From positions 112,368-176,367 of the forward strand of contig NW_021836141.1 of NCBI RefSeq assembly GCF_006345805.1: a stretch of 64,000 bases of DNA. Reading direction: 5' to 3'. A program made the position numbers and the translations under genes. Below the pieces are notes generated by a model. It did not search any database. It saw nothing but the letters and a program-made list of their open reading frames with translations, and was not told where the DNA came from. The DNA is from Octopus sinensis. Its lineage: Eukaryota. Shown here piece by piece: positions 12,876-49,708 of the stretch; positions within the stretch are counted from its first letter, which is position 1, and each line of letters starts with the position of its first letter.

Positions 12876-14378
12876 GTCTGTTGTCCCAGTTTTCAAAAAG
12901 GGAAACAAGTCCCTTGCAGTGAATTACCGTCCGATCTCACTCACCTCTCATATCATCAAGGTATTTGAGAGGGTGGTGAGATCTCGAATAACCCAGTTTC
13001 TGGAAAGCAACAGACGGCTGATCTCCAACCAACATGGGTTCCGTAATGGAAGGGACTGCCTAACGCAGCTCCTGCATCACTTTGAGGACATTTTGAGAGC
13101 TTTGGGAGAGGGCTCCAACACCGATGTCATCTACCTTGATTTCAGTAAGGCCTTCGACAGGGTCGATCACAAGATCCTATTGAAAAAACTATCCAACATT
13201 GGTGTCTCTGGAAAGTTACTGAAATGGATTAAGTGTTTCCTGACAGACAGATCTCAACATGTTGTAGTTGAAGGGGTAAAATCAAGCCCAGCCAAAGTCA
13301 GTAGTGGCGTTCCGCAAGGCACTGTGCTGGGCCCACTTCTTTCCATCATTTACATTAATGACATTAATGACATCATCAAGCACAGCAACATAAAAATCTT
13401 TGCAGATGACTCCAAGCTACAGAAGGTCATAAATGAGGCGAGTGACCGGGCATGCCTTCAGTCAGATCTACTGGCTGTTATCCAATGGGCAGAAAAAAAC
13501 AATATGCTGCTGAACGAGGATAAATTTGAGCTAATCCACTTTGGAAAAGAGGATGCCCTGAAACTCCCATACTCCCTTCCTTCAGGTGAAACTCTCGCGG
13601 CGTCCAACAACATCAGAGACTTGGGAGTAATTGTGGGCAACAACGTAAGCTGGGCCACTCATATAAACACCAAAGTTGACATGGCCCGCAGAATGTGTTC
13701 CTGGATTCTCAGAACTTTCCAGTCGAGAGATATCCACACCATTATCCTTCTCTTCTCCACTTTTGCCCGACCCCACCTTGAATACTGTTGTCCACTGTGG
13801 TCTCCCCACACAATACAAGGTATCATAAAAGTTGAAGCACCTCAAAGGGCAATCACAAAAAAGATAGATGGCATGACAGGCCTCGACTATTGGGGTCGGC
13901 TAGAAAAGCTAAAACTCTATTCTCTCCAACGTCGTCGTGAGCGCTACATCATCTGCATGATGTGGAAAATATTCCATCAGCATTGCCCAAATGATGTTGG
14001 CATCACCTTTAAGGTACATCCAAGGCTTGGGCCCCGTGCCATCCGCCCAAAACAAAAATCGCACTCTCATCTCATAACAACAATACGGCACAATTATTTC
14101 ACCTCAATTGGCCCCGCTCTCTTTAACATTACACCAAAACACATTAAAACAGAAACTGACCCTATAGGGTTCAAGAAGTCTTTGGACAGATTCCTTCAAG
14201 AAATCCCGGATAAACCCCCTACACCCGGATATGTCTCTGTAAACAATAACTCTCTACTTGAGTGGGCCATAGTGCCCAAATTCTGACTTGAAAGACTTCA
14301 CCAGGTGGTGCTATTAAGTTAGACATGGCCTGGGCCAATAATGGCCGAAACCTATCAAAGTATCAAAGTATCAAAGTA
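12876..14378 (+). mobile_element. 5'-truncated CR1-like LINE
   Basis: Open RT frame, short 3' UTR, (TATCAAAG)3 tail, inserted in a (TA)n/(TATG)n tract. Confidence 0.9.
12919..14286 (+). CDS. Non-LTR reverse transcriptase (CR1-like ORF2, C-terminal part)
   Basis: [58 protein letters not shown]; 455 codons without a stop; no true start. Confidence 0.92.
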
Positions 14379-45767: not shown

Positions 45768-45783
45768 TATATATATATGGAAT

Positions 45784-45834
45784 TTTGTCAGTGAACAGGT
45801 CGAGGTCTCAAAGCGACGAAAATATTTTGGCAAA
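45784..45834 (+). ncRNA. Hammerhead motif with G3:C8-swapped core (GTGAACA)
   Basis: tttgtca-GTGAACA-g-gtcg..cgac-GAAA-atat-TT-tggcaaa; all three helices intact. Confidence 0.7.
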
Positions 45835-46009
45835 TTAAATTCAAATGTTGAAGTGAATCAAACGGTTTTCTGTGTGTTTCTTAAACAGCTTATAAACACC
45901 TTCCACGCTCAATTGTTTTCGTTCCAACACACGATCTCAGATCAGGTCACTTGCTCTGCAAGTACATCTCCGTGATATGTATGTATGTATGTATGTATGT
46001 ATATGTAAG

Positions 46010-46160
46010 TATTGATAGAAATTGTAAGACAACAAAAGAATGAAAGAGACCTCGATATTATGTAAATAGAGGAATTTATCTGTAAATATAATGTGACAAT
46101 TATTCAGTAGCCTGGCCCGATAACTGAAGAGATGTCGGCGTGGGTTTCCGCCCCGACGTT
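46010..46160. mobile_element. Inverted pLTR-type fragment of the 1255-1432 hammerhead family
   Basis: 46010-46112 is the reverse complement of 1320-1432; 46119-46160 repeats GATAACTGAAGAGATG..CCGAC. Confidence 0.8.
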
Positions 46161-46691
46161 ATGCCTCCATTCATTTTCACACATGGTCTCAGACTCAACA
46201 GAGGCCTACATCAAGTGCCTGGAGGAGGTCGTGCTGCCCTGGGTCAAGAGGATGGCTGTTAGAAGACCCAATGTCTGGCAACAGGACTCTGCACCATGCC
46301 ACACAAGCAGGAGAATCCAGTGATGACTGTCAGACAATTTCTGCGACTACTTCACCTCTAACATCTGGCCAACTAACTCCCTAGACTGCAACTCCCTTTA
46401 TTATTACATGTGGGGTGCAGTTGAGCGAGAGACCAACAAAACTCCTTGTAACATACACTAAAGATGAACTGAAGGCAAGGATTATGGCAGCATTCACCAA
46501 CTTAAACAAGGAGACCGCCCAGGAGAGTTGCGGGAGGTTTCGAAGTCATCTGGAGGCCGTGGTTGAAGCCAATGGCGATATTATTTCAAGATATTTTTAT
46601 GTAATTTTGATAAATATATCTGTTAAAATGAGATGTCAGTGCTATTTTCATTTTTGCGTAATTTAGATGACAGCTTATTCATCGCACCCTG
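46161..46691 (+). mobile_element. Tc1/mariner (maT-like) 3' fragment
   Basis: WQQDSAPCHTS, WPTNSLDCN, RFRSHLEAVVEANG; ends CACCCTG-TA. Confidence 0.85.
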
Positions 46692-47320: not shown

Positions 47321-47972
47321 ATTTCACTCTTCAATCTAGAGGAGGGGGATATTCTATTACTCTCCAAACCCCATAGACACTTCTCTACACTTTAAGAATA
47401 ACAACTGAGACTGAACATACATCCGATGGAAATTTTCACTAAAAATGCAGGCATAGATACAGCATGGGAATCTTTAATAAACCGACAATTTCCCCGACAT
47501 TTTTGTCATAAGAGACTAAGAAATATCAAAATAATCTAAATTTAGCTAAAATAATCATCTTATTAATCATCTTAATAAATAATCTAAATTTAGCTAAAAT
47601 AATCATCAAGCAAAAACATATCCAAATCTCTGAAAAGGAACATAATCAAGATATTTGTAAAGCTTATCATTATATCTATATTACCAATACATCTATTAAC
47701 CGCATGTATGTTATTTATATGCATAATGCTATGTATCGTTATCAGTGAGTTTTAGCTGGTTTGCGGTGAGCTGGTGGCAGCTGCCGTTGAAGAGACGCAG
47801 TACCTCAAAATCAAGGGATCTGCCAGCTCCGGTGCCCATAGCAGGTGATTCCTGTCTACCAACGATATGAATATGCGTGCGGTTAATATATATATAGATC
47901 GCCATGTTGAATCGCTAGCTTCTGCACGCATTTTTTCTCTCCTTGTTTCTCTCCGTGTTTCTTTTCTGTGTA

Positions 47973-48010
47973 TCTTTCTGTTGAAGAGCGTAGACTCGAA
48001 ACGTAAAAGA
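47973..48010 (+). ncRNA. Hammerhead motif with A6U core (CTGTTGA)
   Basis: tcttt-CTGTTGA-a-gag..ctc-GAAA-cg-TA-aaaga. Confidence 0.65.
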
Positions 48011-48129
48011 CTTGTTTTGTTTATATTCCTGAGCGCCATACTAATACAATTGTTTGTTTGTACTCCACCTGCCTTCGTCTTTTGTTTATTTTCATAAAGC
48101 TTCCCGTTATATATATATGTGTGTGTGTG

Positions 48130-49708
48130 TTTGACAATACGTTTTACCGTCAAAAATCCGAAATTACTATGGGTACTAGGGCAGCACTAGTCATTGCGAA
48201 CCTAACAATGGGCTACCTGGAGGTAATAATATACTAGGAATCTTTATCTACCTTTGGAAACCACCTTTCCCAATACATAAAAGAGAATTGGAAAAGATTC
48301 CTAGACAACTGTTTTATACTCTGGAATAAAAACACAGATAAACTCCTAAAATTCAAAAGCCTATTGAACAGTGTCAACCCAAATATACATTTCACAATGG
48401 AATACAACCAAAAGGAGCTTCCATTCTTAGATATACTAATAAAAAAAATAAACTTAAAAATAAAAACGGACATATGTTACAAAACCACTGACACCAAACA
48501 ATATCTACTTTTTTATTCATTCCACCCAAGACACACTAAAACAAACATCCCCTCAACCTTGCAAGAAGGATATGCACAATAGTGTCAGAACAAAATACCA
48601 GAAACATTAGACTACAAGAACTCAAAAGCACCCTAATTGACAGACGCTACCCAGTTCAACTCATAGAGGATGGAATCAGCCGTGCAACAGAAATCGACAT
48701 AGAAACCTGAAGAAAAATTCAACACAGCAACACATCTTCCCCGAAAATACTGCCGTACATATCCACATACAACCCCAGAAACAAAGAGCCTTCACCAACA
48801 TCACCCAGAATTTACCCATGCTACATAAGGACCCCAAATTAAAGGAAAGTTTAAACATACATAAAATCATCAAAAGCTACAAACAACCTAAATCGCTAAA
48901 AGAAAGATACTCACAAAGGCAAAATTGTTTTCTGAAATAACGGATGCAAAAGCAAACAAATGTGGTAGATCAAACTGCGCAACATGCCCAAACCTTCTAG
49001 AAGGATCAGAATTCCTCTTCAAAGAGGGACAAAAATTCAAGATCAAATCTAATTTTACTTGTGCTTCAGAAAACCTAATTTATGTCATAAGATGCTTAGG
49101 CTGCCACCAAAACTACATAGTGTCCACGGGATCATCGCTCAGATGCAGATGCACTCTGCATCGACAACAGATTGCATTCCCAGAATACAGAATGATACAC
49201 TTTAGTGAACATATTGAGAAATGCGTAAAGCAGCTACTACCGCAATTTATAATCTTTTCATTCTATCAATGTGCTATTGTAACACCAGCACAAGTTAGAT
49301 TAAAGAAGGAAACATTCTTCATTGAAAAATGTAAGTCAAATCTTAACCATTTCTAGCATTTTTAAACAAGGAAACTCATCTCATTGAAAAAAATATAAAG
49401 AAAAACCTAACAACATTCTATTCCTTCTAAACTAATGTTTATTTAGTCATACCCAACATGTTTGATTATCTCCTTTATACCGGAATAAATCCCTCATTAC
49501 CTTCCCCTGTCTCGAAGCCCATATTTCACAACATAGCGAAGACATGACACGATGTAGGTAAAAAAATTTGAAAAGAAAATACGAAACCCATTATTTCTCC
49601 AAAAACTATGTTATTATACACAAAATTTTATGACATTTTTCTTACATAACGACTTAAATATATTCTTTAACCTTATAACACAAGCCTTCTGCAGTTTTTT
49701 CACTCTTT

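What the first reader, a model, noticed from the sequence alone, without database searches (positions are those of the whole stretch)
45784..45834. Natural hammerhead with a compensatory G3:C8 core swap
Seen: the core reads GUGAACA instead of CUGANGA, while stem I (7 bp), stem II (gtcg/cgac), GAAA and palindromic stem III are intact. Known: C3 and G8 form a tertiary Watson-Crick pair in the active hammerhead, and the engineered double swap restores activity lost by single mutants. Inference: both core changes fall on this pair, which suggests a selected functional variant that CUGANGA-based searches would miss.
Basis: partly seen in the sequence, partly recalled or inferred. Interest (0 to 1): 0.85.

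Follow-up and report, generated by a model that had tools for sequence, protein, structure and literature searches.

The report
Jumping-gene hammerhead with flipped core pair
A jumping-gene family with thousands of copies in this genome carries a hammerhead-shaped RNA whose central C-G pair is flipped to G-C, while sister families keep C-G or use U-A, which likely means the RNA's self-cutting shape is kept by selection, although cutting itself is untested.

Summary
Confirmed at family level. 45784-45834 is a minimal type I hammerhead motif in the pseudo-LTR of a Penelope-like retrotransposon (RT plus GIY-YIG). GUGAACA is the family norm: 74 of 100 listed copies are exact, 0 of 100 have C3, and a loose G3/C8 pattern gives 7,799 matches (control 485). 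All 7 long-ORF copies examined carry it beside the ORF. Homologous pseudo-LTRs in the same genome show three Watson-Crick states at positions 3 and 8: C-G (two families), G-C (this family and an older one, 75% alike downstream) and U-A (4 of 4 copies). Helix II also covaries. The window copy is a decayed solo insert (weakened helix II, dead start codon). Cleavage is untested, and sibling families carry uncompensated core changes (A9C, A6U). Natural U3-A8 and engineered G3-C8 are published; 8 paper searches found no natural G3-C8, but five key papers were not held. The scan earlier noted an unresolved G3:C8-like motif in another genome.

The parts
45777..45976 (+). Solo, 5'-truncated end of a Penelope-like pseudo-LTR plus tail, lying between TA/TATG microsatellites
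   Evidence: 91-94% identical to dispersed copies; longer copies extend 5' into a repeat-rich UTR and a RT/GIY-YIG ORF
45784..45790 (+). Helix I, 5' strand
   Evidence: pairs with 45828-45834
45791..45797 (+). Core junction G3 U4 G5 A6 A7 C8 A9 (G3 at 45791, C8 at 45796)
   Evidence: family majority; aligns with the canonical core of families B and C and the U3/A8 core of family E
45798..45798 (+). Extra nucleotide (G) between A9 and G10.1
   Evidence: invariant in all 23 aligned copies of five families, canonical ones included; an extra base here is typical of Penelope minimal hammerheads (PMC4209133)
45799..45817 (+). Helix II and loop II; 4 bp here, 5 bp in the family (private C-to-A change at 45803)
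   Evidence: pair probability 0.43 here against 0.99 in family copies
45818..45821 (+). G12 A13 A14 A15.1
   Evidence: invariant across five families
45821..45826 (+). Self-complementary all-A/U helix III segment, predicted to pair between two molecules
   Evidence: duplex -0.2 kcal/mol; the older family D has the 4-nt palindromic form
45827..45828 (+). U17 and the predicted cleavage site between 45827 and 45828
   Evidence: inferred from hammerhead numbering; not tested
45828..45834 (+). Helix I, 3' strand
45885..45973 (+). Remnant of the first ~30 codons of the element's ORF; start codon mutated and one base deleted in this copy
   Evidence: in locus L133 the same sequence continues in frame into the ORF; differences listed

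Best explanation
This is the hammerhead motif in the pseudo-LTR of a high-copy Penelope-like retrotransposon family, with the C3:G8 core pair replaced family-wide by G3:C8, and it likely still works in the source elements as a slow self-cleaving ribozyme kept by selection. Shown: the position about 50 nt upstream of the ORF start, the family-wide G3/C8 state, and covariation at 3:8 and in helix II among homologous families. Inferred: G3:C8 would hold the 2'-OH of residue 8 in the general-acid position. The weak palindromic helix III would be completed by a second copy, probably with help from the element's protein. Cutting after U17 would trim tandem transcripts or make the 5' end of the ORF mRNA. 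The window's own copy is a decayed insert and probably inactive.
For: (1) Element: 7 of 7 long-ORF copies fetched (L130-L136) carry the intact G3C8 motif beside the ORF: downstream in 6, only in the inverted 5' copy in L131. The ORF has YVDD, a CX3CxxC linker and a GIY-YIG match. The ORF start lies inside the repeat. Two 3' ends form a tail: 49 and 88 of 158 hits. (2) Canonical relatives: 1,553 matches to a canonical-core pattern with the same extra G and helix II start, control 5; they are homologous downstream too. (3) With positions 3 and 8 left free (30 of 89 loci fetched), family D gave 15 of 23 G-C and 3 G-U, family E 4 of 4 U-A, family A 3 of 3 G-C. (4) Pair counts on 22 distinct hand-picked rows: 3:8 is G-C 11, C-G 6, U-A 5, none unpaired; two helix II pairs change on both sides. 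(5) Tree with positions 3 and 8 masked: (B,C,E) split from (A,D) with UFBoot 94. Majorities of A and D are 75% alike downstream, yet identical at 14 helix I, helix III and N17 positions that the search did not fix (0.75^14 = 0.018). (6) Young against old A subfamily: 9 non-coding differences, 0 in 41 constrained positions, 5 in loop II. (7) Contigs of four coded organisms list no C-to-G change and no G-to-C change at position 3, at a 3% floor. (8) Engineered C3G/G8C partly restores cleavage in a Penelope hammerhead (PMC11167929, passages).
Against: No cleavage data. Uncompensated core changes are majority or common states in other Penelope-like families here: A9C in young family B (2,684 matches) and U at position 6 in another family (window 47978; 3 of 7 hits). 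This suggests relaxed catalysis is tolerated. G3G8 occurs in 4 of 100 listed copies and is partly a sub-lineage (7 of 12 share another change, p=0.014). The young/old test weakens to p=0.04-0.10 if the loop changes count as 1-3 events. The dimeric fold (-27.2 kcal/mol) is no better than two monomers (-14.7 each). The pair counts reflect about two evolutionary events, on rows I chose. Hammerhead cleavage was not needed for insertion in vitro in another Penelope element, and Naiads lack canonical hammerheads.
Confidence: 0.7

Rival explanations
1. The swap was compensatory when it arose, but the ribozyme is now nearly or wholly inactive and dispensable; the family spreads regardless and the motif persists by descent.
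For: A9C and A6U families and G3G8 copies were also copied. Cleavage was dispensable in vitro for another element. Penelope minimal hammerheads cleave weakly (PMC4209133 Results).
Against: The core and helices are unchanged from old family D through old and young A (copies about 24%, 3% and 1% from their majorities), while N7, loop II, helix III length and flanks changed.
Confidence: 0.18
2. The fold, including the 3:8 pair, is kept as a non-catalytic structure (protein-binding, priming or translation signal next to the ORF start).
For: The motif lies about 50 nt from the start codon and about 90-145 nt upstream of the element's two 3' ends. In another element the hammerhead region is protein-dependent.
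Against: G12, A13, A14, G5, A6 and H17 are kept as catalysis requires. The 3:8 pair is a feature of the active conformation (PMC3884650, passages).
Confidence: 0.09
3. Two neutral substitutions in a dead motif happened to land on positions 3 and 8.
For: The finding was picked because it looked compensatory (ascertainment), and the genome has many Penelope families with core changes.
Against: The chance is about 0.6% for one such event. A second lineage reached U-A at free positions (4 of 4), and the state persisted over 25% flank divergence.
Confidence: 0.03

Closest known systems
Minimal and dimeric type I hammerheads in pseudo-LTRs of Penelope-like elements (Cervera and de la Pena 2014, PMC4209133)
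   Same: Location, type I topology, extra base between 9 and 10.1, G10.1-C11.1, small palindromic helix III, frequent U17, mostly solo or inverted-pair copies.
   Different: G3/C8 instead of C3/G8. The extra base is G, whereas the published consensus has H (one listed species has G; supplement part 2 of 3).
Natural U3-A8 hammerheads (Perreault 2011, PMC3088659; Schistosoma Penelope elements, PMC4209133)
   Same: Natural covariation of the 3:8 tertiary pair; family E here is of this kind.
   Different: Those keep pyrimidine-3/purine-8 and need two transitions. G3:C8 flips the pair and needs two transversions.
Engineered C3G/G8C double mutants (Anolis Poseidon hammerhead, PMC11167929; review PMC8495972)
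   Same: Same two substitutions; partial rescue reported.
   Different: Here the state is natural, family-wide and old.
Neptune-type EN+ Penelope-like elements (as described in PMC8557442)
   Same: C-terminal GIY-YIG, CX2-5CxxC linker, TA-microsatellite flanks, inverted 5' copies, tail.
   Different: Clade not tested by tree. The tail here is about 55-60 nt against 30-40 bp in that paper.

Membership tests
Hammerhead ribozyme (type I, minimal/dimeric) | Three-way junction: helices I, II and a (palindromic) III | tested here: met
   helix III is weak and predicted intermolecular
Hammerhead ribozyme (type I, minimal/dimeric) | U4 G5 A6 A9 G12 A13 A14, A15.1-U16.1, H17 | tested here: met
Hammerhead ribozyme (type I, minimal/dimeric) | Literal C3 and G8 (CUGANGA) | tested here: not met
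   G3 and C8 in 96 and 93 of 100 listed copies; no Rfam hammerhead hit
Hammerhead ribozyme (type I, minimal/dimeric) | Watson-Crick pairing potential between positions 3 and 8 | tested here: met
   G-C, C-G and U-A across homologous families
Hammerhead ribozyme (type I, minimal/dimeric) | Site-specific self-cleavage after N17 | not testable with these tools
   only assembled contigs were offered, which cannot show RNA ends
Hammerhead ribozyme (type I, minimal/dimeric) | Loop I-loop II tertiary contact | not tested
   loop II varies among subfamilies; no contact was modelled
EN+ Penelope-like element | Single ORF with RT and C-terminal GIY-YIG | tested here: met
   1,042-aa open frame; GIY-YIG PF01541 at its cut-off, no Pfam RT hit on the 511-aa piece; YVDD and DKSG motifs; relatives named RT-domain proteins
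EN+ Penelope-like element | Pseudo-LTR, inverted 5' copies, tail overlapping the ORF start | tested here: met
Neptune clade | CX2-5CxxC linker motif | tested here: met
Neptune clade | Placement in the RT phylogeny | not tested
   no reference sequences were at hand
Non-LTR retrozyme | Head-to-tail tandem units, each with a hammerhead, no ORF | tested here: not met
   copies are solo, inverted or ORF-linked

The most novel reading that the evidence does not exclude
First natural, catalytically active G3:C8 hammerhead. One retrotransposon clade in one genome has used three Watson-Crick versions of the active-site tertiary pair, showing that Penelope hammerhead catalysis is under selection in vivo and that a class of GUGANCA ribozymes is invisible to current searches.
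Probability: 0.5. Interest if true: 0.75.

Novelty: new variant of a known kind. Interest (0 to 1): 0.62.

Why it matters
The role of Penelope hammerheads is open: cleavage was dispensable in vitro for one element, and some clades lack the motif. Paired changes at a tertiary pair of the active conformation are evolutionary evidence that this conformation matters. The five families give a ready natural panel (C-G, G-C, U-A, A9C) to test in one sequence background. In practice, descriptors that fix CUGANGA or reject core changes (as in PMC3088659 methods) and the Rfam models miss such motifs, so hammerhead counts and 'no hammerhead' calls for Penelope families may be too low.

Tried and rejected
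Rfam at both thresholds: no hammerhead. MITE or SINE reading from the short inverted ends: rejected once copies were traced into the ORF. Link to the Penelope ORF at window 48140-49357: rejected; it is another family with its own motif. An 81-nt genome search returned nothing (common words are skipped). Related loci in metagenomes: 0 of 34 stretches confirmed. A family-shaped G3C8 pattern in metagenomes gave 56 matches; none had a Penelope ORF by tblastn, and 3 of 56 passed a loose helix test but look like chance. Sequencing runs: no RNA holder listed on record; only contigs were available, so ends and splicing could not be read. Loci with 68-88% ORF identity (L143-L147) showed no D-type motif, so families D and E are tied to the clade by pseudo-LTR and ORF-start homology only (no tblastn hit in their loci). 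Eight intended A copies, including all four young ones, were not picked up by the tree script; the tree holds 41 rows. Paper searches for a natural G3-C8: none found. Not held, so not seen: Lunse 2017 (about 150,000 Penelope-associated variants, figure recalled), Przybilski and Hammann 2007, Hammann 2012, Martick and Scott 2006, Scott 2013. Their text or supplements could already list G3-C8.

Full report
OBSERVATION. The motif is in the sequence as described: helix I 45784-45790/45828-45834 with one U-G wobble, core G3 U4 G5 A6 A7 C8 A9 at 45791-45797, helix II 45799-45802/45814-45817, GAAA 45818-45821, a self-complementary hexamer 45821-45826 and U17 at 45827. A relaxed descriptor found three Watson-Crick-core motifs in the window: this one and two canonical ones. 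Forty shuffles gave 0.25 on average, and 0 of 40 gave one as well paired. Free-energy folding alone is unremarkable (z -0.56), and Rfam misses the motif.

IT IS A FAMILY STATE. The surrounding 200 bp is a dispersed repeat (1,812 candidates, best copies 91-94% alike; one 100% duplicate on another contig). With the eight core letters free, 1,276 copies matched. In the first 100 listed, 74 read GTGAACAG, 96 have G3, 93 have C8 and none has C3 (hand count). With one mismatch to a canonical-core version there were 0 C3G8, 25 G3G8, 3 C3C8 and 1 C3A8. A loose G3/C8 pattern gave 7,799 matches against 485 for the control. Contigs of four coded organisms show no alternative letter at 3 or 8 at a 3% floor.

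IT BELONGS TO A PENELOPE-LIKE ELEMENT. 778 copies extend upstream through a sequence resembling a branch point and 3' splice site (splicing inferred, not shown). Some continue through about 1 kb of repeat-rich UTR into the end of an ORF. The ORF reaches 1,042 aa as an open frame. It has DKSG, YVDD and a CX3CxxC linker and a GIY-YIG match at cut-off. All 7 long-ORF copies fetched carry the intact G3C8 motif: 6 downstream of the ORF, and 5 in an inverted 5' copy. In L133 the last ~90 bp of the repeat continue in frame into the ORF. Blast hits end mainly at two points about 55-60 nt apart (49 and 88 of 158). This is the pseudo-LTR-plus-tail layout described for these elements (PMC11167929 and PMC8557442, passages). 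The host is probably an octopus: a sister-family protein matches a record named Octopus vulgaris (inference).

THE WINDOW COPY IS DECAYED. It is 5'-truncated, has lost the fifth pair of helix II, has a dead start codon and a one-base deletion. In 201 nt of context its helices have probability 0.0, against 0.65-1.0 for a young copy. An old copy with an adjacent inverted repeat also lost helix I.

HOMOLOGUES GIVE THE COVARIATION. Family B (ORF 54% identical) has C3:G8 at the same place; its majority form has C at position 9 (2,684 matches) and other copies have A9. A canonical-core pattern with the same extra G and helix II start gave 1,553 matches (control 5), made up of A9 copies of B and a family C. 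With 3 and 8 free (89 matches, 30 loci fetched) two more families appeared. Family D is old: 15 of 23 copies G-C, 3 G-U, 1 A-U, 4 unpaired, with copies about 24% from their majority. Family E has 4 of 4 U-A, and a fifth inverted copy agrees. On 22 distinct chosen rows the 3:8 pair is G-C 11, C-G 6, U-A 5, and two helix II pairs change on both sides. An earlier alignment of 17 distinct rows also shows both-sided change in helices I and III. These counts stand for a few events, not independent samples. A 41-row tree with positions 3 and 8 masked separates (B,C,E) from (A,D) with UFBoot 94, so G3:C8 is most simply one old event. A and D majorities are 75% alike downstream. They differ at N7, in loop II and by a two-base insertion that keeps helix III palindromic, but agree at all 14 helix I, helix III and N17 positions the search left free (0.018). 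Between old and young A subfamilies (59 and 26 of 105 copies), 9 non-coding differences avoid all 41 constrained positions (p=0.015; 0.04-0.10 if the loop counts as 1-3 events).

MECHANISM. Established: G12 is the general base, the 2'-OH of residue 8 the general acid, held by pairing with residue 3; G8C costs about 10^5-fold and C3G partly rescues it (PMC8495972 and PMC6155905, passages). The same rescue was seen in a Penelope hammerhead that needed protein. Minimal Penelope hammerheads cleave weakly and as dimers (PMC4209133 Results). Inferred: the G3:C8 RNA cleaves slowly after U17 as a dimer or in the ribonucleoprotein, trimming tandem transcripts or forming a 5' end 57 nt before the start codon. 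The modelled dimer is no more stable than two monomers. Confidence 0.7.

AGAINST. There is no cleavage or RNA-end evidence. The A9C and A6U families and the G3G8 copies (4 of 100; partly one sub-lineage) show that imperfect cores get copied here. The original motif was picked for looking compensatory. D was first seen through a G3/C8 pattern, C through a canonical pattern, and D and E lack recovered ORFs.

KNOWN AND NEW. Natural U3-A8 is published (PMC3088659 section 8; PMC4209133). G3-C8 appears only as an engineered variant in what I read. The Cervera supplement (part 2 of 3 read; whole PDF searched, 4 passages shown) showed no G3 core. Eight searches found no natural case. Other papers seen in passages or in part without such a case: PMC10085705, PMC13725137, PMC4918200, PMC6765202, and a 2026 retrozyme preprint (part 1 of 5). 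Five key papers were not held.

VERDICT. A real, family-wide, old G3:C8 hammerhead variant of a Penelope-like element, with natural covariation support. New variant of a known kind; activity untested; interest 0.62.

Noticed in passing
window 42277 (-) and 42497 (+): Two canonical minimal hammerheads (CUGAUGA, extra A, U17) in inverted pseudo-LTR copies around an AAT microsatellite.
   Followed up: partly
window 47900-49357 (+), motif at 47978: Decayed Penelope-like element of another very large family (16,505 candidates). Its pseudo-LTR hammerhead has U at position 6; none of 7 hits in fetched loci had A6.
   Followed up: partly
L137, L139, L148, L152-L154 (family B): High-copy sister family whose majority core has C in place of A9, while other copies keep A9.
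   Followed up: partly
L174, L178, L186, L198 (family E): U3:A8 hammerhead family with a 3-bp helix I, homologous to this clade.
   Followed up: partly
L083-L112, about 15 nt upstream of helix I: Branch-point and 3' splice-site-like sequence. Several solo copies (e.g. L003-L005, L009, L013, L016, L021, L024) begin just at this point with GAG instead of CAG, as if copied from a spliced RNA or after a template jump; unexplained.
   Followed up: partly
L132:7470-7705, run X4: 15 A-to-G places against 1 in run X17, including A15.1 at about 3%; resembles A-to-I editing of sense transcripts. There is no matched DNA and the organisms differ.
   Followed up: no
L255:294-320 (-): Metagenome contig with a G3/C8 core, 5-bp helix II and the same helix III letters as family A, but a poor helix I and no Penelope ORF hit; inconclusive.
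   Followed up: partly
window 46100-46690 (+): Decayed Tc1/mariner-like transposase fragment (translation; family label recalled).
   Followed up: no
window 12877-14286 (+): 469-aa open frame of a LINE-type reverse transcriptase (label from motifs, recalled).
   Followed up: no
G000:C12619:155542-155752: 100% duplicate of the window's copy and of the nearby Penelope fragment on another small contig; probably a haplotig or recent duplication.
   Followed up: no
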